DNA of 48,888 nt. Source: an uncultured Candidatus Saccharibacteria bacterium (GTDB lineage Bacteria > Patescibacteriota > Minisyncoccia > Phycocordibacterales > SBAW01). The notes under the pieces are model-generated. The model was not told where the DNA came from. It saw only the letters and a program-made list of their open reading frames with translations, and did no database searches. Below are positions 16,968 through 31,489 of the stretch, one piece after another. Numbering within the stretch: position 1 is the first letter of the stretch; every line of letters begins with the position of its first letter. The translations under genes were made by a program, and so were the position numbers. Location of the stretch: the NCBI GenBank assembly GCA_964650645.1, contig CAZYUH010000001.1, positions 705,202-754,089 on the forward strand. The letters run 5' to 3'.

Positions 16968-17001
16968 GGGTACAGTATAGCCAATCGCGCCGGCCCCGCG
17001 C

Positions 17002-17352: not shown

Positions 17353-17370
17353 AAATACTGGTCGGCCGGC

Positions 17371-18264
17371 TCACGCCTCTTTTAGCTTGGAAGGGCGCTC
17401 CTTCTTGCCCGGCGCCTCGGCGGCGTGCACGACCCTCTGCGGGAGCGGGATAGCGATGCCCTCCCTGTCGAACGCCATCTTTATCCGCTTCCTGAGCTCG
17501 CCGGCCACGTCCCACTGCTTTATAGGGGCCGTATCGCCGAGGATCTTTATCATCACCGCGGAATCCGCGAACTCGTTCACGCGCAGGAACGCCGGCGGCG
17601 TCAGCACGTGCTCCTTCCATTCCGGGTCCTGCGCAAGCTCCTCGCCGACGCGGTTCACCACTTGTATGACATGCTCAAGGTCCGCCGAGTACGGCACGCC
17701 AACGTTGATGTTCACGCGCGAGAAATCCTTCGACAGGTTCGAGACCGTCTTTATCTCGCCGTGCGGGACGTGGTGCACCGTGCCGTCGAGGTCCCTCAAG
17801 GTGGTCATCCTGAGCGTTATGCGCTCGACGAGGCCGCATGTAGCGCCGAAGCACACCACGTCTCCCGCGCGGTACTGGTTCTCGAGTATGACGAACGCGC
17901 CCGAGATGAGGTCGCGTATGAGGTACTGCCCGCCGAAGCCCACGGCGATACCCGCGACGCCCGCCGCCGCGAGCACGGGGCCTATGGCGACCCCGAATTC
18001 CGAGAGCAGCATCATGCCCGCGACGAGCCACACGAGTATCGATACCGCGCCGACGATGACCTGGATGAGCGTATCCTCGCGCTTCTCTTCCGAGAGCTTC
18101 GAGCTGCTTCCCTGGCGCACCAGGCGGCGCACGGCGCGCCCGATGAGCCTGCGCGACAGCAGCTGCGCGAGAACCGCCCCTATGATAATGGCGACAATGC
18201 GCACGAGGTGCTCGCTCGCGAAGACGCGGGCCGATTCATAGAATTGCGGAAAGAATGCCTCCAT
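17371..18264 (-). CDS. mscS: Small-conductance mechanosensitive channel (MscS family)
   Basis: AGVAGIAVGFGGQ.LIRDLISG, ENQYRAGDVV, GLVERITLRMT.LRDLDG, AFDREGIAIP. Confidence 0.9.
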   Translation of the reverse strand: MEAFFPQFYESARVFASEHLVRIVAIIIGAVLAQLLSRRLIGRAVRRLVRQGSSSKLSEEKREDTLIQVIVGAVSILVWLVAGMMLLSEFGVAIGPVLAAAGVAGIAVGFGGQYLIRDLISGAFVILENQYRAGDVVCFGATCGLVERITLRMTTLRDLDGTVHHVPHGEIKTVSNLSKDFSRVNINVGVPYSADLEHVIQVVNRVGEELAQDPEWKEHVLTPPAFLRVNEFADSAVMIKILGDTAPIKQWDVAGELRKRIKMAFDREGIAIPLPQRVVHAAEAPGKKERPSKLKEA

Positions 18265-18330
18265 CTATCCACCATACCCCGCACGGCACTGAAGGCAACC
18301 CCGTTATGCCCGTTTTGCCGCCGAGTTCCC

Positions 18331-18621
18331 TTATTCACCCTCTTTATCCTTAGGAGGCCCCCATTGCCAGCGGGGCTTCTCGCCCTTCGCGTACCCGAAG
18401 CCAAGCAGGAGCGCGCACGCGAGAAGGATGCCGAGCAGGGCCGCGCCGGGCGCGTCGTCAGCCTGCCCTATAGTGAAGCCCGCGGCGATGAGCGCGACCG
18501 CGGCGCCAACGACCAGCCACCCCTGCCATTTCACCGGAACCCAGCCCCAGCCGTACAGCTTGGCTTTGAACCAGCGGCCCTCGGGATTGTCTTTCAGATA
18601 TTGCATACAGCTTCTCATCAT
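18331..18621 (-). CDS. Small Trp-rich membrane protein
   Basis: WFKAKLYGWGWVPVKWQGW, two TM helices, GEKPRWQWG; ATGA overlap with the upstream gene. Confidence 0.65.
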   Translation of the reverse strand: MMRSCMQYLKDNPEGRWFKAKLYGWGWVPVKWQGWLVVGAAVALIAAGFTIGQADDAPGAALLGILLACALLLGFGYAKGEKPRWQWGPPKDKEGE

Positions 18622-18809
18622 TTCCTTATGGTAGCGGAAAAGGCGCGGCAAGCGAGCGCATAGGCCGCCCACGATACGGCGAATATGACCGCCGCCCATG
18701 CGACGACTATCAAAAGATTGGGGCCCTCCGGGTCGTTAACGAGCATGAACGACGCCCTTGAGGCGATAAGCGACAGGACGCCCAGGACGATGAGCGGTAT
18801 CTTTTTCAT
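18618..18809 (-). CDS. Small membrane protein
   Basis: Two TM helices around DPEGPNLL; coupled to the next gene by ATGA. Confidence 0.55.
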   Translation of the reverse strand: MKKIPLIVLGVLSLIASRASFMLVNDPEGPNLLIVVAWAAVIFAVSWAAYALACRAFSATIRK

Positions 18810-18859
18810 GGCGCTTATAAAACCCGCCGCCGCCCTTTGAAGTTCCAGCCGGCGCGGCG

Positions 18860-19783
18860 CTACCTGAACGTCGCCGTTCCGCTGTCGAACTTGAGGTCAA
18901 GGACAAGCTCCCCGCGCGGCGTGAAGTGGTACCCCGCAGCCCCTTCGAGTATCCGGGCGAACTCGCCCTCCCGCGAGCCTTCGCAGAACATCAGGGTCGC
19001 GGCTATCGGGCCGAACGAAAGCGAGCCTTCGTGCGCGGCATACTTCCCGCTCACGCTGTTGCAGTCCGTCTTCGCGGAGAAAGCGCCGTCGCCGGCGAAC
19101 GTGAGCACGAAATCGCCAGGCTTGTCCGGTGCCACCTTCCTCCCGTCGTTATACAGCGCCGAGACCCATATCCACTCCTTCATGGAAAGCGACATGGCGG
19201 AGGGGTCGGCCTCCCCCTCGAAGCCCTGCTCGACGGTGCCGAACCGCATCGTCTGCGGGTCGAGCTTGAGCCACGCGCTCTTGCCGACCGACGGCCGCAC
19301 GGTCATCGGCTCGCCGGGAGCGCGGTCCGCGTAATTCACCACGATGACGTTCTCGTGGCCCGGGTCGCGGCTGAGCTTAACCGTTTGCGGAGCGATGCGG
19401 TCGCCGAGAAGATACCCTTCTGAGCCGACATACCCGTCTTCCGTATTGAGCGCCGCAACAGCATAGAAGAACGTGCCGCTGCCGCCGGTTTCCTGCGTGA
19501 GGATGAACACGGCGTCCTCGCGGCCATCGTCATTGAGATCGGCCCTGAGCTCATTGCCGAAATAGCGGGTAGTGATCTTCGACGCGGAGCCGGGAGCCGC
19601 TTCCTCTTGCGCGAAGCCGTTATCCAGCTTCACCTTCTTCCCGCCGACGCCGTACTCGATGCTCTTGTACCCCGCCGCGGCGGCATCCGGCCCGCCACCG
19701 CGCTCGTAAGATGCGAGCGCGAAGGCGCCTCCGGCGATTACGGCGAGGGCGCAGAGCCCGAGCGCACTCCGTTTCATATCCAT
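18860..19783 (-). CDS. META-domain (HslJ-like) exported protein
   Basis: C-terminal META motif (FSAKTDCNSVSGKY...FGPIAATLMFC); N-terminal TM; GSGTFFY motif; TGG-TATACT 7 nt upstream. Confidence 0.85.
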   Translation of the reverse strand: MDMKRSALGLCALAVIAGGAFALASYERGGGPDAAAAGYKSIEYGVGGKKVKLDNGFAQEEAAPGSASKITTRYFGNELRADLNDDGREDAVFILTQETGGSGTFFYAVAALNTEDGYVGSEGYLLGDRIAPQTVKLSRDPGHENVIVVNYADRAPGEPMTVRPSVGKSAWLKLDPQTMRFGTVEQGFEGEADPSAMSLSMKEWIWVSALYNDGRKVAPDKPGDFVLTFAGDGAFSAKTDCNSVSGKYAAHEGSLSFGPIAATLMFCEGSREGEFARILEGAAGYHFTPRGELVLDLKFDSGTATFR

Positions 19784-19883
19784 ACGGATAAGTATACCAA
19801 TCGGCGGGATAGGTACGAGAGTTCGCTCGCGGGACATTAGCCGGTTCTCATTATTGAATCAGCAACCAGGAAGAATTTGAATG

Positions 19884-19915
19884 AAAAAAACAGGCCGGCA
19901 CTAAGCCGGCCTGTT
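19884..19915 (-). terminator. Intrinsic terminator of the phosphagen kinase gene
   Basis: Minus strand AACAGGCCGGC-TTAGT-GCCGGCCTG followed by 7 T. Confidence 0.75.
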
Positions 19916-19931
19916 AGTCTTCCTTTTGCGC

Positions 19932-21080
19932 TTAGTGCGCTTTCTCAAGCTCGATGAGCTTTTCCAGGCCTTCGAACAACCGCTTGGTCACTTCGGCTTC
20001 CGTTACGCCGAATCTTGCCAGTGGCGATATATCAGCCGTGCCCGCAGCGTCCATTTGCGAATGCTCCCCTGACAGGCCGCGAGCCTGGAGGCCGAAGCCT
20101 TTAGCCGCAGCCTTCAATCCGCTCTCGTCAGTTCCCTGCTTTGAGAGGCTCGGAAACTGGAGGAGCACCGATTGCCTCTTGCCAGTGCCCATATTGGTCG
20201 GGCAGGTCGTGATGAACCCATACTTCGGATCCGTGGCGAACTCAACGCCCGCCTCCGCCATTGCGGAAAGGAGCGCTGAAAGCGACCGGTCGACAACGCC
20301 AAGATCGCTTCCATGGACGATGCTGATTATCCTGAGATGGTCTTCTTCCCCCACCCACACCATCATCTTCTTGTCCGAGCTCAGCCATATCCCCCTTCCG
20401 TGCGGCCAATCGGAAGCGATGCCGCTGCTTGTCAGGTGGTTATCGCTTGTCATATCGTTGAAGAGGTAGTGGTCCCGCCTCATCTCATCAGCTTGGGCTG
20501 CCGGAATTTCGCACGGGTGTCCGGGAGTCAGGCTATAGTATTTCCCAGCGAAAGGAAGCTTGTTGAAAACCGATCCGACCATGAACTCCTCGAACTTCAC
20601 CCGCTCCGATTTGTCCATTGAGCTCGGGAGGTTCCAGCCCGAGACGTTCCTCGCAACGCGGGCCCGCATTGAGACATCGGACAGACTCGGATCAACCAGC
20701 CGGAGGTCGTATACGCCTACCGGGATATTCCAGTCGTGGGCCTGTGCAACATCTCCCGCGATGTTGTGGTATTCGCGGATGATCGGCTCCAAATACCTTC
20801 CCAGCTCGGAGTAATCTGAAGGGCGGGTTGCGTAGACGCCGACACTGGCATCTTCATTTGAAAGACCGCCGACCATTACGTCGAGCAGCCGCTGCTGCTG
20901 GTCCGGAGACAGGTTTTCCGCCCATTCCCTTACCCGGGGAGTGAAGTGCTTGTTCCCGAGCGAAACTTTTACGCCCCTGAGAGCGCGGAAGCGGTCGGAG
21001 ACTTTTCCCCAATCAACATTCCCTTCCTTTACATACGGAGCGCGGGCCTCATCCTTGAAGATGACTTGGTTGTTGTGCAT
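19932..21080 (-). CDS. ATP:guanido phosphotransferase (two-domain phosphagen kinase)
   Basis: N-domain GLSNEDASVGVYA...PIIREYH; RARVARN; DHYLF; WPHGRG; WVGEEDHLRIIS; TCPTNMGTG.R; RGLSGEH; DISPLARFGVTEAE. SD-like AAAGGGA upstream. Confidence 0.93.
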   Translation of the reverse strand: MHNNQVIFKDEARAPYVKEGNVDWGKVSDRFRALRGVKVSLGNKHFTPRVREWAENLSPDQQQRLLDVMVGGLSNEDASVGVYATRPSDYSELGRYLEPIIREYHNIAGDVAQAHDWNIPVGVYDLRLVDPSLSDVSMRARVARNVSGWNLPSSMDKSERVKFEEFMVGSVFNKLPFAGKYYSLTPGHPCEIPAAQADEMRRDHYLFNDMTSDNHLTSSGIASDWPHGRGIWLSSDKKMMVWVGEEDHLRIISIVHGSDLGVVDRSLSALLSAMAEAGVEFATDPKYGFITTCPTNMGTGKRQSVLLQFPSLSKQGTDESGLKAAAKGFGLQARGLSGEHSQMDAAGTADISPLARFGVTEAEVTKRLFEGLEKLIELEKAH

Positions 21081-21257
21081 TTTGATCCCTTTATCAATAG
21101 GCTAAGGATCGTTTGTACGGATCCGAAGTAAAAATACTACATTTGCTTGAAAAGTCTATTTCATGCCTTATTGCAGCCCCGCCAGGACGCCGCAGACCGG
21201 TAAAGGCGGCGCACAAGCACGAGCTGCTTGGATGAGTGGGCGACATTGAAACACATC

Positions 21258-21584
21258 TTATTTCTTAGCTTTCTTTTTCTTCGCCGGCAAAGACTTGGCA
21301 ATATCAAGCAAGATGTTTGGCAGGCTCTCCATCCTGGACAGCTGGCCTTCTTCCACCAAGTAATGGGGTTTTGCGCCGGGATACGGCTCGTCTTTTTCGC
21401 ATACGGATTCAAGATCCCGGCTTGCAGGCAAAACTTTTACGTACAACTGGTCGTCGCAAATAAGGGCCACTGCTTTGCCGTCTGCGTACAGCGCATACTC
21501 ACCGAATATTGCGAGAACAGAAAAATTCTTGGGATGCCGGAGCTTTTCCAAGATAAATTCGACTGCTTCTTTCCGGGTAGACAG
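21258..21584 (-). CDS. TfoX/Sxy N-terminal domain protein (start uncertain)
   Basis: FGEYALYADGKAVALICDDQLYVK and PYPGAKPHY. Family-like start (L)STRKE begins at CTG 21584; the track uses TTG 21608. Confidence 0.75.
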   Translation of the reverse strand: MSTRKEAVEFILEKLRHPKNFSVLAIFGEYALYADGKAVALICDDQLYVKVLPASRDLESVCEKDEPYPGAKPHYLVEEGQLSRMESLPNILLDIAKSLPAKKKKAKK

Positions 21585-21626
21585 AGACGATTCAAGAAAT
21601 TTCAGCAAATGACGCTAGGCCGCAAT

Positions 21627-21773
21627 GACGATATTGCAGTCAAGGAAATAGATATACGAAATTACGCTAAGTATTTATTACGAGAAGGAACAGATCTAGA
21701 AAAGCGAGAATTGCTTGGATGTTTGAAAGGTAATATTTTGTTATCTGAAAAAAAGATTCTATTAACAAAATAA
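21627..21773 (+). pseudogene. Probable 3' remnant of a large serine recombinase
   Basis: DDIAVKEIDIRNYAKYLLREGTDLEKRELLGCLKGNILLSEKKILLTK resembles, from recall, C-termini of Patescibacteria recombinase-family proteins. No own start; GC drops here; terminator follows. Confidence 0.5.
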
Positions 21774-21800
21774 AAACCACTCGACTGAGTGGTTTTTATT
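21769..21800. terminator. Bidirectional intrinsic terminator
   Basis: AATAAAAACCACTC-GACT-GAGTGGTTTTTATT, perfect 14-bp stem. Confidence 0.8.
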
Positions 21801-21836
21801 TCATATTCCTATGTTACTTATATCGCGAACTTAATG

Positions 21837-23363
21837 TTAGTAACTCATAAACTCCGTCACTTCACCATCATTACCGATTGCATAGATGATCCATTTCTCT
21901 GTCTTTGGTCCTGGCATTCCTGGAGAACCTGAAGGCATTCCAGGCAAGGCGATACCTTTGATGGCTGGTTTTTCTGCGAGCAACTTTTCTATTACCTCCA
22001 GTGGTATGTGCCCCTCAACTACATAGCCTCCAACTATAGAAGTGTGGCAGCTCTGTAGATTAGTTGGAACGCCGTACTGATCTTTGATAGCAGTAAGGTC
22101 TTCAACGTCTATAGCCTTTACTTTTACATCTTCACGTTCAAGGTACTCCACATAAACGTGACAGCAACCACACGTTTTTGTTTTATATACCGTCATCTCC
22201 TCACCCATAAGGGCAGTCTTCTCTTCGGAAACGCTTTGACCTTTCCAGATGCTTATACCATTCGGCTTACTGCCTACCGATATTTGAGTTATTTCCTTAC
22301 CTGTTTTTGTATCGACTACAGAGACAGTATTTCCTTCGAGGTTTGTGACATATGCCTTGCTATTATCGTCATTAATAACGACTCCGTGAGGGGCTTTCCC
22401 AACAGCAATGCTTTCAGTTATTTCTTTCGTTTTAAGATCCAGTTTGTACAGCTTGTTGTTTGCAGGTCGGTTCTGTAGAACCCCTTGATCTGCAATATAG
22501 ACGTAACGAGAATCTGAAGTCGGATAGAGTTGCACTGGTCCCTCTGAACCCTCTGGCAATGCTACATACGATACTGATTCGAGAGCAGTATCGTACAGAG
22601 CAACGCTGCGAGTCTCATACACAGACGCAGCTACATATTTACCATCAGGAGTAACCGCTGTCTGGACAACCGAACCGTTGAGAATTTTTACTTCTGTCGT
22701 TCCACTTGCGAGATCGACGACACCAAGACCCTTCCCGTCCATAAAGGCAACATAGGCAGTTTTTCCATCAGGAGAGAGTCGCATACCATGGGGACCGCTT
22801 CCTTCGGGTAGACTAATCTCTGTTTGTAGGAAATTGCTCGTATCTACTTTGTAGAGCTTATTTGTCTCCTGCGCCGCGATAAGTGCTATAGATCCGTCTG
22901 GGGTAAACACGACATGCGCCAGATGCTGACCACTTCCAAGCGGTATTCGTTTGACTATGGCGTCCTCTTGAGGGTCAATGACGATAACCTGATCCCCAGT
23001 GTCCATCTTCATTTCCTCATGTCCCTCATCGGCATATGCGGTAGGAATGAAAAGTGAAGTATGTACGTCATGCTCCTCCATTCCAGCATTAGCTGTTACC
23101 CAAACACTTTTTCCGTCGGGGGACGCCTGGACATTGTGCGGAAGATATTTCGTCTCAGTTTCTTGCTCAGTAAGATCAATGACTTTGATTGATTTGTTTG
23201 TGGCAGGGTCAATCACATTCACAGTGCCTTCTTCTTCGACTGCCACATAGATTTTCTCTGTAAGTGCATTTCCTGTTGAGGAAATGGGGTTATTCTTTGC
23301 AAGCAACGTAATGCCTACAAGTGCAAGGATTACAATCCCGCCTAATAGATATGCTTTCTTCAT
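21837..23363 (-). CDS. YVTN/YncE beta-propeller fused to a C-terminal DUF411 (CopG-like) domain
   Basis: Blades PHNVQASPDG, AHVVFTPDG, PHGMRLSPDG, APHGVVIN; C-terminal TCGCC, SCHTSIVGGYVVEGH, GIALPGMPSGSPGM. Confidence 0.85.
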   Translation of the reverse strand: MKKAYLLGGIVILALVGITLLAKNNPISSTGNALTEKIYVAVEEEGTVNVIDPATNKSIKVIDLTEQETETKYLPHNVQASPDGKSVWVTANAGMEEHDVHTSLFIPTAYADEGHEEMKMDTGDQVIVIDPQEDAIVKRIPLGSGQHLAHVVFTPDGSIALIAAQETNKLYKVDTSNFLQTEISLPEGSGPHGMRLSPDGKTAYVAFMDGKGLGVVDLASGTTEVKILNGSVVQTAVTPDGKYVAASVYETRSVALYDTALESVSYVALPEGSEGPVQLYPTSDSRYVYIADQGVLQNRPANNKLYKLDLKTKEITESIAVGKAPHGVVINDDNSKAYVTNLEGNTVSVVDTKTGKEITQISVGSKPNGISIWKGQSVSEEKTALMGEEMTVYKTKTCGCCHVYVEYLEREDVKVKAIDVEDLTAIKDQYGVPTNLQSCHTSIVGGYVVEGHIPLEVIEKLLAEKPAIKGIALPGMPSGSPGMPGPKTEKWIIYAIGNDGEVTEFMSY

Positions 23364-23367
23364 AGGC

Positions 23368-23763
23368 TTAATTGTTGAACCACGTTTGTCGCCATTCTCT
23401 CATCATTTCAATTTCACTTGTCTGTGCGTTAATAATGTCATTTCCAAGTTTTACGAGTTCAGGGCGCTTAGTCTTTTGAAGAAGCATCTCTGCCATATCT
23501 ACAGCTCCTTCGTGGTGAACAATCATCTCGTCAATAAATGCCTTCTCAAATTCTTCTCCTGATTTACCTTCTAAACCTGCTGTCATATTAGTCATTGTGT
23601 TTCCCATTTCGTGTGAGTTACCCATCATATGACTGCTTGTGTCGGTTATACCTGACATCATTGGGTAATCCATTTTTCCTGTTCCTAAGAAATATCCAAG
23701 AACAAGTCCCAGAATGAGGGTAATGATGCCGATAATAAGTAGATGTATATTTTTTGTTTCCAT
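23368..23763 (-). CDS. DUF305 ferritin-like (CopM-like) protein
   Basis: Met/His-rich linker; FIDEMIVHHEGAVDMA...IINAQTSEIEMM. Confidence 0.88.
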   Translation of the reverse strand: METKNIHLLIIGIITLILGLVLGYFLGTGKMDYPMMSGITDTSSHMMGNSHEMGNTMTNMTAGLEGKSGEEFEKAFIDEMIVHHEGAVDMAEMLLQKTKRPELVKLGNDIINAQTSEIEMMREWRQTWFNN

Positions 23764-23803
23764 AATTTTGTTTAATAGTTGCTAATAAAAGAAGTAGGAA
23801 AAA

Positions 23804-24211
23804 TTACGGGGCTTTGGGATGCAAAATACCTTGAGAGAATAGCTCTGTATATAAATCGGGAATATGGAACGTGAACCTGCGAGGTAATTCTTGAGAGTTG
23901 GATATTTTGGGCGGATCCAGTATGTCCTTTTTTATATACGTGTGGAGGGCAAGTCCAAGAGCTATAAGTAAAAGCAAGTAGGAAGCGATGAGTGTTAGAG
24001 GAACACTGAACATGCTTTGCCATACAGAAAGGTACTCAAACGGGTTCATTGCACAAATGACATGCTCTCCAAGCGTTATGGTGCATCCAGCTTGGTGTTC
24101 ACCGTGCGACATTTGAACCGCCGACAAAATGCCAAACCCACCTACCCATACAAATGCCACTAAGAGTATGCCGAGGAGGAGATATTTTGCTTTGTTAGTA
24201 AAAAATGACAT
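23804..24211 (-). CDS. Hypothetical membrane protein in the copper operon
   Basis: Two TM segments, MSHGEHQAGC...HVIC motif, C-terminal ELFSQGILHPK; 2-nt gap to copB. Confidence 0.7.
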   Translation of the reverse strand: MSFFTNKAKYLLLGILLVAFVWVGGFGILSAVQMSHGEHQAGCTITLGEHVICAMNPFEYLSVWQSMFSVPLTLIASYLLLLIALGLALHTYIKKDILDPPKISNSQELPRRFTFHIPDLYTELFSQGILHPKAP

Positions 24212-24213
24212 AC

Positions 24214-26259
24214 TTACATTCTATAATTTTTCAGGAGGGTTGCGTTAATCGCCACGACCACCGTACTTACTGACATCAGTACGGCTCCTACGGCAGGAGA
24301 TAAAACAATTCCGACACCAGCGAGTACTCCCGCTGCCAGTGGCAGGGCAAGAATGTTATAACCGCTTGCCCACCAGAGATTTTGGATCATCTTTCGATAG
24401 GTAGCTTTGGCAAGAGAAAGAATTACAACCACATCTCTTGGGTCGCTTTTTACCAAGACCACATCAGCGCTTTCTATAGCCACATCGGTTCCAGCGCCGA
24501 TAGCGATGCCAACATTGGCCTGTGCAAGAGCTGGTGCGTCATTGACCCCGTCTCCGACCATCGCCACCTTATACCCTTGAGCTTGGATTTCTTTTATTTT
24601 CTCTGTCTTCTCGTGTGGCAATACCTCTGCGTAATAGGTTTTGATACCGAGCTCCTTTGAAACACGTTCTGCAACACGCTTTGCGTCCCCGGTAAGCATA
24701 ATGGGTTCAATTCCCATTGCTTGAAGTTTTTGGACCACCTCCTTTGCTTCATCGCGAACCAAATCATCAAGAGCAATAGCACCTATAGGTAATTCGTTAA
24801 CCAAAACGAACACGACAGTCCGTCCCTCATCAATCAAACGTTCAACATTTTTGTTGTTTACCGTTATGCTCTTTCCATTCAAATACCCTGGACTTACGAC
24901 TTTGATTTGTTTTCCTTCTACAGTGCCCATTGCACCTTTACCTGGTATTGAGGAGAAGTTATTTACAGCAAGCTTTTTGCTTACCCGTTCTGCTATAGCT
25001 TTGGCTATCGGATGTTCGGAGTGTGCCTCTATTGCGGCAGCATAGGCAAGGATTCGATCCTCCTGTTCATTTCCCAAGGGCACAACTTCGGTTATACCGA
25101 ACTTTCCTTTAGTAAGAGTGCCTGTCTTATCAAAGACAACAGCTGTTATATTCCGTGCTTCTTCAAAAGCGGTTCTGTTGCGTATAAGCAAGCCTTTGCG
25201 AGCAGAAAGAGCTGTTGAAACCGAAACCACAAGCGGTATAGCAAGACCGAGTGCGTGAGGACAAGCTATGACAATAACAGCAATGGTTCGCTGAAGGGCA
25301 TACGCGAGATTTTCTGACGTAAAAAATGTCCAACCAAAGAATGTAAGTATCCCTGCGCCTATCGCAACAAACGTTAGCCACATCGCTGCACGATCAGCGA
25401 GTTTCTGGGTCTTTGACTTTTCTGCCTGTGCTGATGACACAAGCTCTATAATTTGCGAAAGATATGTGTCTTTTCCTACTTTCTGTATCTCTACTACGAT
25501 TGAGCCATCACTGTTTACAGAGCCTCCAATAACGGATTGTCCAGCAAACTTTTCTATGAGCTTGGTTTCTCCTGTAAGCATTGCTTCATTTACAGAAGTT
25601 CTTCCTTCAACAACAATGCCGTCAACTGGAATCTTCTCACCAGGCTTTACAAGAACTCTATCTCCGAGGGACAGATCGGCAACCTGAACATCTTCTGTCT
25701 CTCCGTCTTTTCCTAGCCGATGTGCTGTTGAAGGCATTAGCTTTGCTAGCTCTTCCAAAGCCCGAGATGCACCCATGACCGACCGCATTTCGATCCAGTG
25801 CCCAAGAAGCATAATGTCCACGAGCGTTACCAGCTCCCACAAAAGCTCCTCGCCGGGCAGGCCCGCAAACACAGCAATGCTATATCCATAAGCGGCAGAA
25901 ATAGCCAAGGCGACGAGCGTCATCATCCCCGGCTGTCTTGCTTTTACTTCATCATATAAACCTTTGAGAAAAGGATAGCCCCCATAAAAGAAAATGATTG
26001 AGGCGAGAATAAACCGAACATATACATCTCCTGAAAAGCCGATACCCTCTATACCAAAAAACATCTGGACCATCGGCGAGAGAACAAGTACAGGAATGGA
26101 GAGAATTAGAGAAATCCAAAACTTCTTTCTGAAATCCTCAACCATATGGGCGTGATGACCTTGATGGTTGTCGTGTGAATGTTTCTCTTGGTGGCTACTG
26201 TCCGTATCAGAGCAAGAGTGATCAGCAGGAGAATGTTTGTGATGAGAAGTATCGTGCAT
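24214..26259 (-). CDS. copB: Copper-translocating P1B-type ATPase, His-rich N-terminus (CopB-like)
   Basis: His-rich N-tail, CPH, DKTGTLT, TGE-type actuator motif (MLTGE), GDGVNDAPAL, YNILA, MSVSTVVVAINA. Confidence 0.92.
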   Translation of the reverse strand: MHDTSHHKHSPADHSCSDTDSSHQEKHSHDNHQGHHAHMVEDFRKKFWISLILSIPVLVLSPMVQMFFGIEGIGFSGDVYVRFILASIIFFYGGYPFLKGLYDEVKARQPGMMTLVALAISAAYGYSIAVFAGLPGEELLWELVTLVDIMLLGHWIEMRSVMGASRALEELAKLMPSTAHRLGKDGETEDVQVADLSLGDRVLVKPGEKIPVDGIVVEGRTSVNEAMLTGETKLIEKFAGQSVIGGSVNSDGSIVVEIQKVGKDTYLSQIIELVSSAQAEKSKTQKLADRAAMWLTFVAIGAGILTFFGWTFFTSENLAYALQRTIAVIVIACPHALGLAIPLVVSVSTALSARKGLLIRNRTAFEEARNITAVVFDKTGTLTKGKFGITEVVPLGNEQEDRILAYAAAIEAHSEHPIAKAIAERVSKKLAVNNFSSIPGKGAMGTVEGKQIKVVSPGYLNGKSITVNNKNVERLIDEGRTVVFVLVNELPIGAIALDDLVRDEAKEVVQKLQAMGIEPIMLTGDAKRVAERVSKELGIKTYYAEVLPHEKTEKIKEIQAQGYKVAMVGDGVNDAPALAQANVGIAIGAGTDVAIESADVVLVKSDPRDVVVILSLAKATYRKMIQNLWWASGYNILALPLAAGVLAGVGIVLSPAVGAVLMSVSTVVVAINATLLKNYRM

Positions 26260-26263
26260 ATAG

Positions 26264-26533
26264 TTATTTGCTTTGGGCTAACTTATATACCTTAAGAATT
26301 TCATTGATTGCTTTCCCTTCTTCTTTGCCTCGCATTTGATGCACAACATGCGTAGATAAGTGATGTTCCAGCATCACATTTTCTACGCTTCCCAATGCCT
26401 TTTTGATGGCATTGGATTGAGTGATGATATCTACACAATATTTCTCGCTTTCCACCATTTGCTGTAAACCACGCACCTGACCCTCGATGCGGCGCAGACG
26501 ATTTTGCAACTGCTTTTTTATGTCTTGCTTCAT
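26264..26533 (-). CDS. csoR: CsoR/RcnR family metal-sensing repressor
   Basis: RLRRIEGQVRGLQQMV, YCVDIITQ, MLEHHLSTHV; a CsoR-type operator sits directly upstream. Confidence 0.88.
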   Translation of the reverse strand: MKQDIKKQLQNRLRRIEGQVRGLQQMVESEKYCVDIITQSNAIKKALGSVENVMLEHHLSTHVVHQMRGKEEGKAINEILKVYKLAQSK

Positions 26534-26539
26534 ATCTTA

Positions 26540-26567
26540 AGTATACCCCTGTGGGGTATACGGTCAA
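26540..26567 (-). promoter_or_regulatory. Sigma70-type promoter overlapped by a CsoR-type operator
   Basis: Perfect palindrome GTATACCCC-TGT-GGGGTATAC (26541-26561); minus strand TTGACC-N16-TATACT-N6-ATG. Confidence 0.85.
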
Positions 26568-26728
26568 GCTCAGTTTCGTTAGTTGATACTGTACCTTATT
26601 CATTCTCCTCCACAGGAACGTGTAAAAGCAAAAAGCGCCCAAACCAGGCACTTTTTACCTATAAAAACCTTCCTTAGTTAATATAAGGCTATCGACGCGT
26701 CTCGTGCGCGATAACCTATCACGAGTTG

Positions 26729-26743: not shown

Positions 26744-26880
26744 ACCTCACTGCTCGCTTCGCTGCGCTTACGAAACCCTCGGTTTCGTAGACTTCCGACA
26801 CGGGGAACTCCCATTCCCCGACCCCCTCCCGGTTCAAATCCATGCCGCGGGCAACCCCGTTGCCCGCTTCTCCCAGCTTC
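26744..26880 (-). other. tRNA-linked palindromic module with a split antisense copy of the tRNA-Gln 3' end
   Basis: GCTGGGAGA-A-[GCGGGCAAC GGG GTTGCCCGC]-GG-CATGGATTTGAACC, followed by further hairpins (GGGGAA/TTCCCC, TACGAAACC/GGTTTCGTA). Confidence 0.7.
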
Positions 26881-26924
26881 AGCGCTTCGTATTCTAGCTG
26901 GGTGTATGGGACGATGTTGGAACC

Positions 26925-27431
26925 TTACTTTGTGCTTAAGCCCATTACCCGAGAGTAGTATGGCAAAATCTCTTGGGCTAGAGGCGCAAGATTTACTTTA
27001 TCAGCAGATTCAGCAAAAAGTTGGAATATAGGCCACAACTCTTGGGTTAGAGTTTTTACATCCCAAACTTTACTTTTTGGAGTACCGCTTTGTCTTGAAG
27101 TGGTAAGATGACCAACTTCCTTATCAGCCCGGGTCTTTGCCTCTGTCAAAACTTCACTTAATTGCGGCCTTACTTTATCCCAGGAGTCTTCCTTGTTAAA
27201 GAAGTCTTTCGCACATACGTCAGTGTCTCTAGAAGAGGCTGGATATAGGAAAGTAATCAGATTCCGCAAGTGTATTGCGTAAGATTCAACAGGCATATGT
27301 TGCAATCCGTTAGGAACTTTAAGCCCACGAATTATTGCATCAGTACCATTGAGTAACATTTGAACCTCATACCGTACATGTTCAGAAAAGTACTCGACAA
27401 GTTGTTTTTCCGTTAGGTCTTTTGTTTTCAT
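26925..27431 (-). CDS. Hypothetical protein, HEPN-like
   Basis: ESYAIHLRNLITFL and RADKEVGH (R-x6-H); all-helical appearance. Confidence 0.6.
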   Translation of the reverse strand: MKTKDLTEKQLVEYFSEHVRYEVQMLLNGTDAIIRGLKVPNGLQHMPVESYAIHLRNLITFLYPASSRDTDVCAKDFFNKEDSWDKVRPQLSEVLTEAKTRADKEVGHLTTSRQSGTPKSKVWDVKTLTQELWPIFQLFAESADKVNLAPLAQEILPYYSRVMGLSTK

Positions 27432-27781
27432 TGCTGAAGCGTAAAATTAAGACATCCGCAACCAGATTTGCATGGTATTTCCTTATTAAAGACAGGGATA
27501 CTTTGTCCTGGTTCAATCTTAGAAAATCCTTCTTTGTGCATAAACTTGGAGTGACCACACTGGCATTGTTGTTTCAAGGACTCTAAGTATTCATCTTGCA
27601 CAGATACATCTATCTCAACTATCTTTTCATTGTTCTCGCACACTTCGTTTACACATTGAAACTTTCTTTTACCGTCAAACTTTTGAGAAGGCTCTCCTTC
27701 AAGTTTTCGCATAGCAAAAGGGCCAATTTCTCTCATTACCTCATGGCAAACTTCGCAGGGCATTTCTTTCATAAATTTCAA
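27428..27781 (-). CDS. Double zinc-finger-like small protein
   Basis: CEVC...CVNEVC and CQCGH...H...CKSGCGC; ATGA-coupled to the next gene. Confidence 0.7.
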   Translation of the reverse strand: MKFMKEMPCEVCHEVMREIGPFAMRKLEGEPSQKFDGKRKFQCVNEVCENNEKIVEIDVSVQDEYLESLKQQCQCGHSKFMHKEGFSKIEPGQSIPVFNKEIPCKSGCGCLNFTLQQ

Positions 27782-27786
27782 TAACT

Positions 27787-29019
27787 TTAGGTTAACTTTT
27801 CGAATTTACTCGAGAGACTCTTTAGGTTATCTAGCAACTCGTCAAATGTAATAAACTCTATATTCTTGAACGACCTACGCAACAATCTAAAGTCTCTCTT
27901 TTTGTTATCGTTACTCTCCCACTCTTGAGTCTTCCCTATTATTAAAAAGGCTTTTGGCTTGAGAACTGAGAATGGAACCTTAGTTTGCTTTTGTAGGTAC
28001 TTTTCGAATCCCTCAACATTTTTTTCAAGAAAGAGAATGTATTTTTCAATCTGAGAAATTGCCTGCGAAGAGCTTCTTGAAAGGAAATAGTTATCATGAC
28101 TGGTGTCTATCCTTCTCGCAAAAATTTCAGTGAATGGTGTCTTTATTTCAAACACATCCAGGAATCCATATAAATCTATCCAGACAAAATCTGGTTTTTT
28201 AGCACCTTCTTCCGTTTTGGCGAAATTAACATCTGCTTCCCTTATCGACTCAATGTAATTTGAGTTAAAGAAGAAGACTTCCTCATGCAGAAACTTTTGC
28301 CACTGTTTTTCCGAGAAGTTTCTGTTTTTGATATGTCTTTCAAACTTCTTTATCACTTGGTCAAGAGTCTTCTTTCTTCCCTCAATGACAAGGTTCTCCT
28401 GCAAATACTCCAGAACTTGGTCATTTTCTGAGTTTATAGAGATGTATCTTTTAATAAAACCAGCGACAGCCTCATGATCGTCTTTATCAAGAGTGTTTAG
28501 GTTAATCTCAGTTAATTTCTTATTTGCACTTTCGTCACTTGATGCACTCTTGAATTCGTTAGGCAAAAAACGAGCAAGACGCTCTTGCACAACAGAATCT
28601 CTTCCTTTTTTTACCTCAGTTCCAAGGTCTTCAAGTAACTCTCTAAAATCTTTAAAAGAGAGACTGAGCGAAACATACTTAGGCTGATTCTTAAAGTAAG
28701 TCGAGCCATGACCACTCATAAATACACTTAGTCTGGTTTCTTTACCAAACTTATTTTTAAGGAAATCCAAAACGTGACTTCCACCAACTTTATTGACCTG
28801 TCTCTGATTAAAACCTCCTCCTGTCTTGTATAAAAATAGTCCTACCGGCTGCTGAGAAAATCCTTTAAAAGTTATTGTCTTTATACTAAACCTTTTAGCT
28901 ACAGACGGTTTGAAGTAGTAAATGAAGTTATCGTCTTGTTTTTTCCAGCCAGCAAGAATCCTCTTAGCCCTCTTTTTGGCTTTCTTTTTTGAGGACTTCT
29001 TTTTCTTCTTGGCTACCAT
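27787..29019 (-). CDS. sduA: Shedu (SduA, DUF4263) anti-phage nuclease
   Basis: EKQWQKFL, KPDFV, VFEIKTP, SQAISQIEKY, KPKAFLIIG, FRLLRRSFKNIEFITFDELL; TATACT 6 nt upstream. Confidence 0.9.
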   Translation of the reverse strand: MVAKKKKKSSKKKAKKRAKRILAGWKKQDDNFIYYFKPSVAKRFSIKTITFKGFSQQPVGLFLYKTGGGFNQRQVNKVGGSHVLDFLKNKFGKETRLSVFMSGHGSTYFKNQPKYVSLSLSFKDFRELLEDLGTEVKKGRDSVVQERLARFLPNEFKSASSDESANKKLTEINLNTLDKDDHEAVAGFIKRYISINSENDQVLEYLQENLVIEGRKKTLDQVIKKFERHIKNRNFSEKQWQKFLHEEVFFFNSNYIESIREADVNFAKTEEGAKKPDFVWIDLYGFLDVFEIKTPFTEIFARRIDTSHDNYFLSRSSSQAISQIEKYILFLEKNVEGFEKYLQKQTKVPFSVLKPKAFLIIGKTQEWESNDNKKRDFRLLRRSFKNIEFITFDELLDNLKSLSSKFEKLT

Positions 29020-29135
29020 GCGGGTAGTATACTCTTGTTCCTGAAAACTTCATCCGCCGGCGCGGGCGGCCATCCGAGGCGCCCTGCGGAGCTTCGTGCC
29101 GCGCCTAGCGGCATGAAGGGGCGGGGCTGCCCGCG

Positions 29136-29357
29136 CTAGCTAAAGGGTCCTTTGCGGATAAGAGTCTCTGCTTCTTTTTCTGCTCCTGGCTTCCGTGTAT
29201 TTTCTTCTATCTTCTCAAGCAAATTTACTATTCGATTTTGTTTCCAGTACCAAGTAAATATCTCTCGAACTAACAAAAAACCAATGAGCCAAAGAAATAG
29301 AATCGGCCAGTTATCAAAGAAGCTAATGATTTGTCGCGGCAATTCTAGGCTGTCCAT
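29136..29357 (-). CDS. Small single-pass membrane protein
   Basis: TM helix then REIFTWYWKQNRIVNLLEKIEEN. Confidence 0.65.
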   Translation of the reverse strand: MDSLELPRQIISFFDNWPILFLWLIGFLLVREIFTWYWKQNRIVNLLEKIEENTRKPGAEKEAETLIRKGPFS

Positions 29358-29389
29358 ATCTTAAAAAGTTACAGATAAAGCCGTGGACG

Positions 29390-29530
29390 CAAAAAGCCCG
29401 CCACGGGTAGAGACCGAAGTCTCTCGTACCAGTTTCCCGATACGGCAGGTAATGCAACCCCATGACGGGTTCTTTATGCATTACCTGACTTGTCGACCTT
29501 ACCTGGGGTTGCCAGGGTTAGGCCCTTTTT
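29390..29530 (-). promoter_or_regulatory. Putative structured RNA leader / attenuator
   Basis: GAAA-loop hairpin (29425-29444), UUCG hairpin (29409-29424), closing stem CCTGCC/GGCGGG plus T-tract, and an 11-bp stem (29446-29456/29477-29487) that overlaps the closing stem. Promoter TTGAAA-N18-TATAGT at 29547-29576. Confidence 0.5.
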
Positions 29531-29719
29531 ATTCAGTTGTGGCCCCACTATACCATCAGTTTTGCCAACATTTCAAAAAGCGTTTCCGAATACAAAAAGT
29601 GCTTGCCGGGGCGGTTTATGAGCGTAAAATTGTTAGTAAGTTCTGGAATAAAAGTCCCGTAAACACGCCTCCTTCGAGGGCAGAGGCAGAACCCACATTA
29701 AAAGCTCGTCTTTTCTTTT

Positions 29720-29932
29720 GTGGTTTATTCTGCCCCTCTAATACAAGAGACTATTTTCGTCTTTCAAGAAGAAAACGGCATACTTCTCACACCCGAGGAG
29801 GCTGTTATTGTTTTGGATGGCCTTTCTGGGTTGTTTTTGGCATATGCAGACCGAGCTGAGGCGACTCCACCCGCTTTAGCGGTGGAGTCGCACTCTATAG
29901 ACTTGATACTCCACACACTTAATGCTACTTAA
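29720..29932 (+). CDS. Small protein directly upstream of the recombinase
   Basis: GTG start; LIQETIFVFQEENGILLTPEEAVIVLDGLSGLFLAY; TTGCCG-N16-TAAAAT promoter at 29603-29630. Confidence 0.55.
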   Translation: MVYSAPLIQETIFVFQEENGILLTPEEAVIVLDGLSGLFLAYADRAEATPPALAVESHSIDLILHTLNAT

Positions 29933-29969
29933 ATTTATTTACTTTTAATTTCAGTGTATTTTAGAGCTT

Positions 29970-31478
29970 ATGAAATACTTCATTTACTGCCGCAAAAGCA
30001 CTGACACGGAGGACCGGCAGGTATTGTCCCTGGACTCGCAGGAAAACGAGCTTAAACGGCTCGCAGAGGCCCAAGGGCTCAAGGTTGCGGGGGTACTTCG
30101 GGAGTCTATGTCGGCTAAGGCTATAGGCCGTCCTGTCTTTACCCAGCTCCTCAAAGCTCTATCCTCTGGTAAAGCCGATGGAATTCTCTGTTGGAAGCTA
30201 GACCGTCTCGCCCGCAACATGGTGGATGGCGGCCAAGTCATGGATTTGCTCCAAAGGGGTGTAATCAAAGAAATTCGCACTTACGAATCAACCCACCTCT
30301 CCTCCGACAATGTCCTCATGCTCGCCGTCCACTTCGGCATGGCAAATCAGTACATCCGCGACCTGAGCATAAATGTTAAGCGTGGACTTAGAGCAAAACT
30401 AGAGCGTGGCGACTGGCCCAACAAACCCCCTCTTGGATATTTCAACGACAAAAACACAAAGCAAATAGTTATAGACCCCATTTCCAGCAGATATGTCGTG
30501 CGCGCATTTGAACTCTACGCAACAGGGAGCTATGGCATAGAAGACTTGGCAGACAAACTGTACGCCGAAGGACTACGGAGCAACCGAGGAGCAAAGATTC
30601 ACAAGTCCACTCTACACAAAGTTCTTCTTCGCTCGTTCTACACAGGGGTCATGGAGCGCGACAATCGCTTTTACAAAGGCAACCATGCTCCCCTCATTTC
30701 AAAGCAACTTTACGATAAGGCCCAAACCGTACTCTCGGGCAATGCACATCCCAAGCCCCAGCGTTTGTTCTTCCCTCTCAGAGGATTCCTGAAATGCGCT
30801 TCCTGTGGCTGTGCGCTTACTGCCTCTCTCAAGAAAGGCCATCAGTATTACTATTGCACCAATGGCAAGGGTAAATGCGACCAGCACAAGAGCTACCTGC
30901 GCGAGAACACCATAAACGCTATGGTGGCTGATTTGTTCGACTCCCTGCACTTCTCTGAGCGCAAGATTGAACTTATGTATAAAGCCGCTAAGGAAAGGTC
31001 AGAGCAGGAGGGCGGCCAAGAAAGACAGAACCTAAACCGCCTCCAGAACCTCTTAAACGCCCTCTCAGAGAAAGAAAGTCGCCTGTTAGATACTTTCGTA
31101 GCCGGTCAGATTCCTAAAGAGCTTTACGACCGCAAGGCGGGCGAAATACAGCATGAACGTCTAGACCTTACCCGCCAGATTCGGGAGGCTGAAAGTAAGG
31201 GAGATGTTTCTACTTTGGAACCGACTAAGCAAGTCTTTTTACAAGCCAGTAAAGCCAAAAAAGAGTTTTTGGATGGCGATGATACTAAAAAGCGCACTAT
31301 CGTAGAAAATCTACTTTGGAACCTTTCTATCGAAAACAAATCCGTGGCTCAAACACAATATAAAAGCCCATTTCACTTACTAGCAAATATCCCTAAAAAC
31401 GCCTCACTTTCAACAATGCTGGGAGACATGGATTCGAACCATGATTCACGCCTCCAAAGGGCGCTGTCCTACCATTAG
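29970..31478 (+). CDS. Large serine recombinase (resolvase + recombinase + Zn-ribbon + coiled coil)
   Basis: YCRKST (catalytic Ser), WKLDRLARN, PPLGY, CASCG...YYYC...C. The last ~20 codons are antisense to tRNA-Gln. Confidence 0.95.
   Translation: MKYFIYCRKSTDTEDRQVLSLDSQENELKRLAEAQGLKVAGVLRESMSAKAIGRPVFTQLLKALSSGKADGILCWKLDRLARNMVDGGQVMDLLQRGVIKEIRTYESTHLSSDNVLMLAVHFGMANQYIRDLSINVKRGLRAKLERGDWPNKPPLGYFNDKNTKQIVIDPISSRYVVRAFELYATGSYGIEDLADKLYAEGLRSNRGAKIHKSTLHKVLLRSFYTGVMERDNRFYKGNHAPLISKQLYDKAQTVLSGNAHPKPQRLFFPLRGFLKCASCGCALTASLKKGHQYYYCTNGKGKCDQHKSYLRENTINAMVADLFDSLHFSERKIELMYKAAKERSEQEGGQERQNLNRLQNLLNALSEKESRLLDTFVAGQIPKELYDRKAGEIQHERLDLTRQIREAESKGDVSTLEPTKQVFLQASKAKKEFLDGDDTKKRTIVENLLWNLSIENKSVAQTQYKSPFHLLANIPKNASLSTMLGDMDSNHDSRLQRALSYH
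31418..31432. repeat. att core, tRNA-proximal copy
   Basis: GCTGGGAGACATGGA inside the tRNA-Gln 3' half and the recombinase 3' end. Confidence 0.85.
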
Positions 31479-31489
31479 ACGATCTCCCA
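31419..31489 (-). tRNA. tRNA-Gln (TTG)
   Basis: TGGGAGA/TCTCCCA acceptor, GCGCC-CT-TTG-GA-GGCGT anticodon arm, GGTTCGAATCC T-arm; CCA not encoded. Confidence 0.95.

What the first reader, a model, noticed from the sequence alone, without database searches (positions are those of the whole stretch)
19932..21080. Eukaryote-type phosphagen kinase in a probable CPR genome, possibly of the oomycete taurocyamine-kinase type
Seen: all catalytic motifs are present plus the N-terminal guanidino-specificity domain (GLSNEDASVGVYATRPSDY) that McsB lacks. Variant motifs are WVGEEDH (not NEEDH), FNDMTSDNHL..SGIASDWPHGRG, YYSLTPGHP and DISPLARF; the Arg of the arginine-kinase KEGDRFL segment is absent. From recall these variants match oomycete/protist (hypo)taurocyamine kinases better than proteobacterial arginine kinases; this is not verified. 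The gene has an SD-type start and its own terminator at the island edge, unlike most neighbours. Inference: a horizontally acquired ATP buffer, or a way to tap host phosphagens, in an energy-limited symbiont.
Basis: partly seen in the sequence, partly recalled or inferred. Interest (0 to 1): 0.82.

Follow-up and report, generated by a model that had tools for sequence, protein, structure and literature searches.

The report
Paramecium-type arginine kinase in CPR bacterium
An ultra-small CPR (Patescibacteria) bacterium carries an intact two-domain phosphagen kinase whose nearest characterised relatives are the arginine kinases of the ciliate Paramecium, not oomycete taurocyamine kinases, which points to gene exchange between CPR bacteria and ciliates and to an ATP-buffering system in a minimal bacterium.

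Summary
The genome is CPR: the window's TopA best matches Ca. Adlerbacteria and Paceibacterota, and the gene sits on a 754-kb contig. Two independent assemblies reproduce both gene junctions at 100% identity.

The oomycete taurocyamine-kinase idea is not supported. The best solved relative is Paramecium tetraurelia arginine kinase AK3 (7EWS; 506 bits, 61% identity, TM 0.95). The quoted "variant" motifs also occur in ordinary bacterial arginine kinases and in chytrid homologues.

The protein belongs to a tight clade of CPR and Paramecium-type ciliate kinases. The two groups are about 62% identical to each other and about 40% to everything else. That pattern indicates inter-domain transfer, but the direction is unresolved.

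The gene is stable in sister strains and abuts a hypervariable region linked to tRNA-Gln. Its GC3 (0.69) is lower than in all 37 core genes.

It is most likely a cytosolic arginine kinase that buffers ATP. This makes it a new member of a known kind. No paper in the held library (PMC Creative Commons papers and bioRxiv) links arginine kinase with CPR or Patescibacteria.

The parts
19932..21080 (-). Phosphagen (arginine-type) kinase gene, 382 aa
   Evidence: ORF; Pfam; 7EWS 506 bits; AF2 model pLDDT 90.9, TM 0.95 to 7EWS
20964..21080 (-). N-terminal extension (res 1-39) that precedes the canonical N domain; shared with Paramecium AK3 and all clade members
   Evidence: The alignment to 7EWS starts at residue 4. 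The model shows helices at 9-16 and 24-37 with pLDDT above 90.
20775..20966 (-). PF02807 N-terminal guanidino-substrate domain (res 39-102), including the GS loop N75-E-D77-A78-S79-V80-G-V-Y83
   Evidence: it aligns to the Limulus and Anthopleura AK GS loops without gaps
19938..20555 (-). PF00217 catalytic domain (res 176-381) with E246, R250, C293, R302, R334, E339 and R356; the phosphate-binding R141 lies just upstream, at res 141
   Evidence: these are the equivalents of Limulus R126, E225, R229, C271, R280, R309 and E314
19889..19915 (-). Intrinsic terminator-like hairpin (11 bp, 8 GC) followed by TTTTTTT, 17 nt after the stop codon
21081..21179 (-). About 100 bp of 5' region conserved with the sister strain (promoter/leader; AAGGGA 5 nt before the ATG)
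   Evidence: blastn block L018 9899-13833 = window 21179-17247; sequence
21180..26689 (.). Strain-variable low-GC metal-resistance segment (TfoX_N, DUF411 beta-propeller, DUF305, P-type ATPase). It is context, not part of the kinase unit.
   Evidence: The sister strain has a 3-kb DUF305/CsoR/HMBD segment here instead.
26744..31417 (.). 4.7-kb insertion (Shedu SduA, large serine recombinase, LOOT RNA) at the 3' end of tRNA-Gln, bounded by 15-nt direct repeats at 26729-26743 and 31418-31432
31418..31489 (-). tRNA-Gln(UUG). It has the same orientation as the kinase, which lies on its 3' side across the variable region.
   Evidence: tRNA-Gln lies near the kinase in 6 of 14 lineages examined.

Best explanation
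The gene encodes a cytosolic, monomer-type two-domain phosphagen kinase. It is most probably an arginine kinase (ATP + L-arginine <-> ADP + N-phospho-L-arginine). It belongs to a compact clade shared by CPR/Patescibacteria (Adlerbacteria-, Kaiserbacteria- and Lloydbacteria-type MAGs) and Paramecium-type ciliates.

Shown: the gene is intact, and all catalytic and phosphate-binding residues are present. The substrate loop has arginine-kinase length. The predicted fold superposes on Paramecium AK3. The gene is a stable chromosomal gene with its own leader and terminator, in a CPR genome assembled as a 754-kb contig.

Inferred: it stores ~P as phosphoarginine when ATP is plentiful and regenerates ATP when supply drops. 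That would be a temporal energy buffer for a fermentative or host-dependent cell with no respiratory reserve. The gene entered this lineage laterally and sits in a tRNA-Gln-linked variable neighbourhood. CPR and ciliates exchanged this gene once; the direction is unresolved.
For: Domains. Closest solved structure is 7EWS, Paramecium tetraurelia AK3 (506 bits; TM 0.95, 61% identity; identified).

Residue mapping against Limulus AK: R126->R141, E225->E246, R229->R250, C271->C293, R280->R302, R309->R334, E314->E339, D62->D77, Y68->Y83. There is no gap in the GS loop.

CPR identity: named TopA hits are Ca. Adlerbacteria (91%), Paceibacterota, Patescibacteria and Minisyncoccia. The exact protein occurs on a 754,089-bp contig.

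Clade: in 1.84 billion 50%-identity representatives, only one full-length representative (P0010) lies above 50% identity and the rest are at or below 45%; three short fragments score 55-59%. NJ bootstraps are 98% for CPR+ciliates and 98% for ciliate monophyly. Mean identities are CPR-CPR 68%, ciliate-ciliate 74%, CPR-ciliate 62%, and about 40% to other kinases.

Bacterial context holds in every CPR locus examined. Assembly is verified. The sister strain keeps the gene at the same place. GC3 is 0.689 against 0.829 +/- 0.055 for 37 core genes.
Against: No enzymology exists for any CPR member. The D62-R193 pair of classical AKs is broken (N214), and GS-loop positions S63/G64 are A78/S79, so kinetics or even substrate could differ; Paramecium AK3 shares N214, however. 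The rest of the genome was not available, so arginine supply and phosphoarginine use could not be examined. The phylogeny is NJ only. CPR monophyly has 58% bootstrap and the deep nodes are unsupported. Conserved neighbours (DUF2200, OmdA, tRNA-Gln) across CPR lineages could reflect old vertical inheritance rather than recent transfer.
Confidence: 0.78

Rival explanations
1. It is an oomycete/protist-type taurocyamine or hypotaurocyamine kinase.
For: R193 is absent. TKs have evolved from AK-like ancestors more than once (literature: PMC6429109).
Against: The best characterised relatives are arginine kinases of Paramecium. No oomycete protein is in the top 120 of either homology search, down to about 275-294 bits, while proteobacterial AKs are. 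The quoted motifs are shared with ordinary bacterial AKs. Schistosoma TK is only 26-30% identical. No oomycete sequence could be retrieved, so no direct comparison was made.
Confidence: 0.04
2. It is a phosphagen kinase of the same clade that acts on a different free guanidino compound (for example agmatine or another arginine derivative), or that mainly runs in the phosphoarginine-to-ATP direction on phosphagen imported from a host.
For: The GS loop differs from classical AKs (A78, S79) and from Paramecium AK3 (DDSQV...S against EDASV...Y). Parcubacteria have been found inside Paramecium bursaria, and Patescibacteria MAGs co-occur with ciliates. The CPR-ciliate gene sharing implies physical contact at some time.
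Against: Several Paramecium paralogues (P0027, P0029) have DDSSVGVY, nearly the CPR consensus DDASVGVY. No transporter or phosphagen-related gene is adjacent. The metagenomic sources were not examined for ciliate hosts.
Confidence: 0.12
3. It is a McsB-like protein-arginine kinase that marks proteins for degradation.
For: The catalytic domain is homologous to McsB (PDB McsB hits of 56-68 bits; NCBIfam hits).
Against: The McsB equivalog models score 33-96 bits against cut-offs of 381-679. A complete PF02807 small-substrate domain is present. Similarity to true AKs is 168-506 bits against 68 bits or less for McsB.
Confidence: 0.01
4. It is an artefact: ciliate DNA mis-binned or mis-assembled into a CPR contig.
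For: The closest named eukaryotic relatives are ciliates. The gene lies next to a compositional break.
Against: Two independent run-level assemblies are 100% identical across both junctions. A sister strain shows the same gene order at 96.9% nucleotide identity. The gene has 57% GC, a standard-code ORF and a bacterial terminator, whereas true ciliate homologues carry in-frame TAA. At least 10 other CPR loci carry orthologues flanked by bacterial genes.
Confidence: 0.01

Closest known systems
Paramecium tetraurelia arginine kinases AK1-AK4 (AK3 structure PDB 7EWS)
   Same: They share the two-domain architecture and length, including the 39-residue N-terminal extension. Identity is 60-64% (61% to AK3) and TM-score is 0.95. 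The clade signatures are the same: MxWxGEED, FxDMTxDN(H/Y)L with Asn in place of Limulus R193, SLTPGH plus a 5-residue insertion, CPTNMGTGKRQS and DISPxARFG.
   Different: The host is bacterial rather than ciliate, and the gene uses the standard genetic code. The GS loop is EDASVGVY against DDSQVGIS in AK3. From my memory of Yano et al. 2017, S79 of AK3 is needed for its substrate inhibition; here the equivalent residue is Ala78. There is no evidence of ciliary or lipid targeting.
Previously described bacterial arginine kinases (Desulfotalea, Myxococcus, Sulfurovum, Oceanithermus, Moritella; 'clusters A/B' of Suzuki et al. 2013, as summarised in PMC11492440)
   Same: These are two-domain AKs in bacteria, thought to involve HGT with eukaryotes. 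Cluster A is reported to group bacteria with ciliates. Metagenomic proteobacterial AKs share VGEEDH, DMSGD, SLTPG and DISPSAR.
   Different: They are only 42-46% identical. The known hosts are Proteobacteria and Deinococcus-Thermus, not CPR. The CPR proteins are far closer to Paramecium than any described bacterial AK. The named species' sequences themselves were not available for comparison.
Classical invertebrate arginine kinase (Limulus 1M15/1BG0)
   Same: The fold matches (TM 0.80-0.86). All catalytic Glu, Cys and Arg residues are present and the GS loop has the same length.
   Different: Identity is about 32%. NEEDH becomes GEEDH, the D62-R193 clamp is lost, and there are two small insertions (res 188-192 and 210-211) plus the N-terminal extension.
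McsB protein-arginine kinase
   Same: The catalytic domain is homologous (PF00217).
   Different: McsB lacks the PF02807 domain and has a pArg-binding dimerisation domain. Scores are far below the family cut-offs.

Membership tests
Phosphagen (ATP:guanidino) kinase family | N-terminal alpha-helical domain (PF02807) plus C-terminal catalytic domain (PF00217) | tested here: met
   PF02807 scores 39 bits (cut-off 25.7) and PF00217 scores 183 bits (cut-off 22.4). The AF2 model has pLDDT 90.9 and TM 0.95 to 7EWS.
Phosphagen (ATP:guanidino) kinase family | Catalytic and phosphate-binding residues (Limulus R126, E225, R229, C271, R280, R309, E314) | tested here: met
   R141, E246, R250, C293, R302, R334 and E339 are all present and invariant across the 35-sequence clade alignment.
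Arginine kinase (EC 2.7.3.3) | Guanidino-specificity loop of AK length (no extra residues as in CK/GK), with the D62 and Y68 equivalents | tested here: met
   The loop aligns without gaps to Limulus and Anthopleura AK. D77 and Y83 are present; S63 and G64 are A78 and S79.
Arginine kinase (EC 2.7.3.3) | D62-R193 inter-domain salt bridge of classical AKs | tested here: not met
   The R193 equivalent is N214. The same substitution occurs in Paramecium AK3/7EWS, which was deposited as an arginine kinase, so this feature does not define the ciliate-type AK lineage.
Arginine kinase (EC 2.7.3.3) | Close homology to enzymes with demonstrated arginine kinase activity | tested here: met
   Identity to the Paramecium tetraurelia AKs (P0027, P0032 = 7EWS, P0034) is 60-64%. 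Their activity is reported by Yano et al. 2017, cited in PMC11492440; I did not read that paper itself.
Arginine kinase (EC 2.7.3.3) | Catalysis of ATP + L-arginine -> ADP + phosphoarginine | not testable with these tools
   This needs a recombinant enzyme assay.
Oomycete taurocyamine/hypotaurocyamine kinase | Closest sequence relationship to Phytophthora TKs | tested here: inconclusive
   No oomycete-named protein is in the top 120 hits of the window protein or of Paramecium AK, so such kinases are no closer than about 42% identity. No oomycete sequence could be fetched for a direct alignment or tree.
McsB protein-arginine kinase | Match to McsB equivalog models above cut-off, and absence of the PF02807 domain | tested here: not met
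   The best model, NF002194, scores 96 bits against a cut-off of 385. PF02807 is present.
Bacterial/ciliate AK 'cluster A' (Suzuki et al. 2013) | Groups with ciliate AKs and with Sulfurovum, Oceanithermus and Moritella AKs | tested here: inconclusive
   It groups with ciliate AKs at 98% bootstrap.

The most novel reading that the evidence does not exclude
The CPR/Paramecium kinase clade records a direct gene transfer between Paceibacteria-type CPR bacteria and ciliates. The greater diversity on the CPR side, its only weakly supported monophyly, and a sister lineage (P0055) on prokaryote-like contigs with an adjacent tRNA-Gln all suggest that bacteria were the donors of the Paramecium ciliary arginine-kinase family. 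Parcubacteria are known to live inside Paramecium, so the gene would then mark a long-standing CPR-ciliate association. In such an association the bacterial enzyme could also draw on the host's phosphoarginine pool.
Probability: 0.3. Interest if true: 0.8.

Novelty: new member of a known kind. Interest (0 to 1): 0.55.

Why it matters
Phosphagen systems are regarded as a eukaryotic, mostly animal, solution to fluctuating ATP demand. The few bacterial arginine kinases described so far are mainly proteobacterial. Finding an intact, conserved arginine-kinase lineage in several CPR groups would give organisms with roughly 0.75-Mb genomes and minimal energy metabolism a dedicated ATP buffer. That is directly testable by expressing the protein. 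The 60-68% identity to Paramecium AKs, against about 40% to everything else, is one of the clearer sequence signatures of CPR-eukaryote gene exchange. [quoted passage not shown]

Tried and rejected
1. Oomycete TK comparison. Literature searches gave no sequences. Cluster look-ups of next-nearest representatives returned only Dysnectes brevis and a mollusc TK-like protein. The claim could therefore be tested only indirectly.

2. Island cargo. I first suspected that the kinase was cargo of the low-GC island. This was rejected because the sister strain L018 keeps the kinase plus 100 bp of leader while the island content differs, and because GC3 is 0.69 against 0.42 for the island.

3. A further tRNA-Gln att repeat next to the kinase. 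None was found; only the pair at 26729 and 31418 exists.

4. Direction of CPR-ciliate transfer. NJ with 500 bootstraps leaves CPR monophyly at 58% and the deep nodes unsupported. No ML software was available.

5. Prior reports. There are zero papers combining 'arginine kinase' with Patescibacteria or candidate phyla radiation. Fraga et al. 2019 on the distribution of bacterial AKs is not held.

6. A distinctive Shine-Dalgarno site. The match is partial, and similar partial matches precede 9 other genes.

7. Rfam and promoter scans around the gene showed nothing beyond the terminator.

Full report
OBSERVATION. The window has one long ORF at 19932-21080 on the minus strand (ATG start, 382 aa). 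Pfam finds both halves of a phosphagen kinase: PF02807 (res 39-102, 39 bits) and PF00217 (res 176-381, 183 bits). A hairpin with an 11-bp stem followed by a T-run sits 17 nt after the stop codon (19915-19889). The "SD" is AAGGGA 5 nt before the ATG. Only 5 of 38 genes in the window have a canonical AGGA/GGAG/GAGG, and AGGG-type partial matches precede 9 other genes, so the start is not remarkable. The terminator faces the META-domain gene. It is the 5' end of the kinase that abuts the low-GC region.

GENOME AND ASSEMBLY. The core of the window is about 64% GC (GC3 0.83 +/- 0.055 over 37 genes). A 10-kb low-GC stretch runs from 21.2 to 31.4 kb (GC3 0.42). The named best hits of the window's topoisomerase I are all CPR: Ca. 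Adlerbacteria at 91%, then Ca. Paceibacterota, Patescibacteria group and Minisyncoccia. The exact kinase sequence occurs on a 754,089-bp contig. The "probable CPR genome" is therefore confirmed as Paceibacteria/Parcubacteria, Adlerbacteria-like. Two Logan assemblies from different sequencing runs are 100% identical to window 14173-22728 and 19383-27927. They span both junctions of the gene, so misassembly is excluded as far as can be done without reads.

LOCAL ANATOMY. A sister strain (L018; kinase 98% identical) has this order: DnaX, a 172-aa ORF, tRNA-Gln(UUG), a 3-kb DUF305/CsoR/HMBD segment, then kinase, META, MscS, DUF2200 and onwards. blastn shows that the shared backbone resumes at window 21179, which is 100 bp upstream of the kinase ATG. 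It also shows that window 26744-31417 is an insertion exactly at the 3' end of tRNA-Gln. That insertion carries Shedu SduA, a large serine recombinase and a LOOT RNA, and is bounded by 15-nt direct repeats at 26729 and 31418. Window 21180-26689 (P-type ATPase, DUF305, DUF411 propeller, TfoX_N) replaces the sister strain's metal segment. The kinase is therefore not island cargo. It is a stable gene at the edge of a hypervariable region linked to tRNA-Gln. Its GC3 (0.689) is nonetheless lower than that of all 37 core genes (z = -2.6).

WHAT THE PROTEIN IS. The best solved relative by far is 7EWS (506 bits). The next are Anthopleura AK (345 bits over two domains), Limulus AK (168 bits) and McsB (68 bits or less). 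7EWS is arginine kinase AK3 of Paramecium tetraurelia. An AlphaFold model (pLDDT 90.9) superposes on it with TM 0.95 at 61% identity. The alignment runs from residue 4, so even the 39-residue N-terminal extension is shared.

Against Limulus AK, all catalytic and phosphate-binding residues are present: R141, E246, R250, C293, R302, R334 and E339. The guanidino-specificity loop has AK length, with D77 and Y83. R193 is replaced by N214, exactly as in Paramecium AK3. McsB equivalog models score 33-96 bits against cut-offs of 381-679.

THE ODD MOTIFS. They also occur in ordinary metagenomic AKs labelled Deltaproteobacteria and Rhodospirillaceae, and in chytrid homologues. They are not oomycete signatures. 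No oomycete protein appears in the 120 best hits of the window protein or of Paramecium AK, whereas proteobacterial, chytrid and Paramecium nr/UniRef entries do. I could not obtain an oomycete sequence for a direct test.

RELATIVES. Close homologues are as follows. Strain variants are 92-98% identical. An NCBI "hypothetical protein" of Ca. Kaiserbacteria is 75% identical. About 30 full-length metagenomic proteins are 62-70% identical, and Paramecium spp. AKs are 60-64% identical. Identity then drops to 53% (P0055) and to 46% or less for everything else.

A genome scan finds the 62-69% group in MAGs named Ca. Lloydbacteria, Ca. Kaiserbacteria, "Saccharibacteria" and "bacterium". All inspected contexts are bacterial. 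An exhaustive search of 1.84 billion 50%-identity representatives returns a single full-length representative above 50%. The clade is therefore compact and isolated. When Paramecium AK is the query, the nearest non-Paramecium named proteins are again CPR, and no other named eukaryote exceeds 46%.

PHYLOGENY. NJ trees give 98% bootstrap for CPR+ciliates, 98% for ciliate-side monophyly, 58% for CPR-side monophyly, and 100% for P0055 as sister. Mean identities are CPR-CPR 68%, ciliate-ciliate 74%, CPR-ciliate 62%, and about 40% to all others. The ciliate side includes an environmental contig (L027) whose four tandem kinase units read through as one polypeptide of about 1,545 aa only with the ciliate code, where TAA encodes Gln. 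A single inter-domain transfer is the straightforward reading, and its direction is open. Two points lean towards bacteria as donors but do not prove it: the larger CPR diversity with weak CPR monophyly, and the sister P0055, which lies on 38% GC contigs with tRNA-Gln 128 nt upstream. Physical contact is plausible. A Parcubacterium (Ca. Sonnebornia yantaiensis) lives inside Paramecium bursaria, and Patescibacteria MAGs are abundant in single-ciliate metagenomes.

NEIGHBOURHOOD ACROSS LINEAGES. tRNA-Gln (CUG or UUG) lies within 0.1-3.5 kb of the kinase in 5 of 14 independent lineages: L001-3, L005, L009, L029 and L022-26. In a sixth, the window/L018 lineage, it lies further off, across the inserted islands. 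In 5 of these 6 lineages the kinase is on the tRNA's 3' side. DUF2200, OmdA, an S4-pseudouridine synthase and metal-resistance genes also recur. This could be old synteny within related Paceibacteria, or repeated residence in tRNA-Gln-targeted islands. I cannot separate the two readings. Kinase GC stays at 52-60% in most loci, whether the flanks are 46% or 64% GC. No kinase hits lie between 75% and 92% identity, although many TopA relatives exist at 80-93%. This suggests a patchy distribution.

MECHANISM. Shown: an intact, conserved, AK-type active site in a cytosolic protein. There is no signal peptide-like N terminus; instead the N terminus is a helical extension shared with AK3. Inferred, from established phosphagen biochemistry: reversible phosphoryl transfer between ATP and free L-arginine, buffering ATP/ADP during fluctuating supply. 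Nothing in the flanks (META/HslJ-like lipoprotein, MscS, DUF2200) suggests a coupled pathway.

From my memory of Yano et al. 2017 (not read here), Ser79 of Paramecium AK3 underlies its substrate inhibition, and AK4 carries G298R. P0034 does show CPTNMRTG, which fits that recollection. The window protein has Ala at the Ser79-equivalent position, so substrate inhibition may be absent.

NOVELTY. Bacterial AKs and their suspected HGT links to eukaryotes, ciliates included, are known (PMC11492440, PMC6429109). I found no paper that combines arginine kinase with Patescibacteria or CPR. Public annotations call these proteins "hypothetical" or "creatine kinase". This is a new member of a known kind in a new host phylum, with an unusually tight bacterial-ciliate link.

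LIMITATIONS. The trees are NJ only. Only 49 kb of the genome was seen. No enzymology exists for any CPR member.

Noticed in passing
window 26729-31489: A 4.7-kb low-GC insertion sits exactly at the 3' end of tRNA-Gln(UUG). It is bounded by 15-nt direct repeats (GCTGGGAGACATGGA at 26729 and 31418) and is absent from sister strain L018. It carries a Shedu SduA nuclease (27787-29019, -), two unknown ORFs and a large serine recombinase (29970-31478, +) whose 3' end overlaps the tRNA gene.
   Followed up: partly
window 29409-29524 (-): A full-length LOOT RNA (RF03000) scores 73.7 bits against a gathering score of 46.4. It lies inside the inserted element, divergent from the serine recombinase gene. 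This is an orphan RNA motif sitting in a mobile element of a CPR genome.
   Followed up: no
window 21180-26689: A strain-variable copper/metal segment holds a P-type ATPase (24214-26259), DUF305, a DUF411 fused to a YncE-like beta-propeller (21837-23363) and a TfoX_N fragment. The sister strain has a different 3-kb DUF305/CsoR/HMBD segment at the same spot. Metal-resistance genes also lie near the kinase in L001-L003, L005 and L030.
   Followed up: partly
L027 8001-12640: An environmental 105-kb contig (35% GC flanks) holds four nearly identical kinase units. With the ciliate code (TAA = Gln) they read through as one polypeptide of about 1,545 aa, apparently a contiguous four-domain arginine kinase of an uncultured ciliate. 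The gene region is 50% GC.
   Followed up: partly
L022-L026: P0055 is the sister of the CPR+ciliate clade (about 51% identity to both). It lies on 38% GC contigs of 1.4-1.6 kb from five runs of one project. A tRNA-Gln(UUG) with an encoded CCA lies 128 nt upstream. The organism is unknown but the context looks prokaryote-like.
   Followed up: partly
L001-3, L005, L009, L018, L022-26, L029 and the window: tRNA-Gln lies next to the kinase in 6 of 14 lineages, mostly with the kinase on the tRNA's 3' side. DUF2200 and OmdA genes recur nearby. This may be conserved synteny or recurrent residence in tRNA-Gln islands; the question is unresolved.
   Followed up: partly
L005 (GCA_034680565.1, contig JAXOUH010039101.1): A CPR-like 62-kb contig with a 70%-identical kinase comes from an assembly whose contig numbering exceeds 39,000. 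It may be a bacterial contig inside a large (eukaryotic?) assembly, and the host could be informative.
   Followed up: no
window, all genes: Only 5 of 38 putative genes have a canonical Shine-Dalgarno core within 20 nt of the start. Many starts are GTG or TTG, and some start calls may be wrong: the TopA cluster representative is 739 aa against the 765-aa ORF.
   Followed up: no
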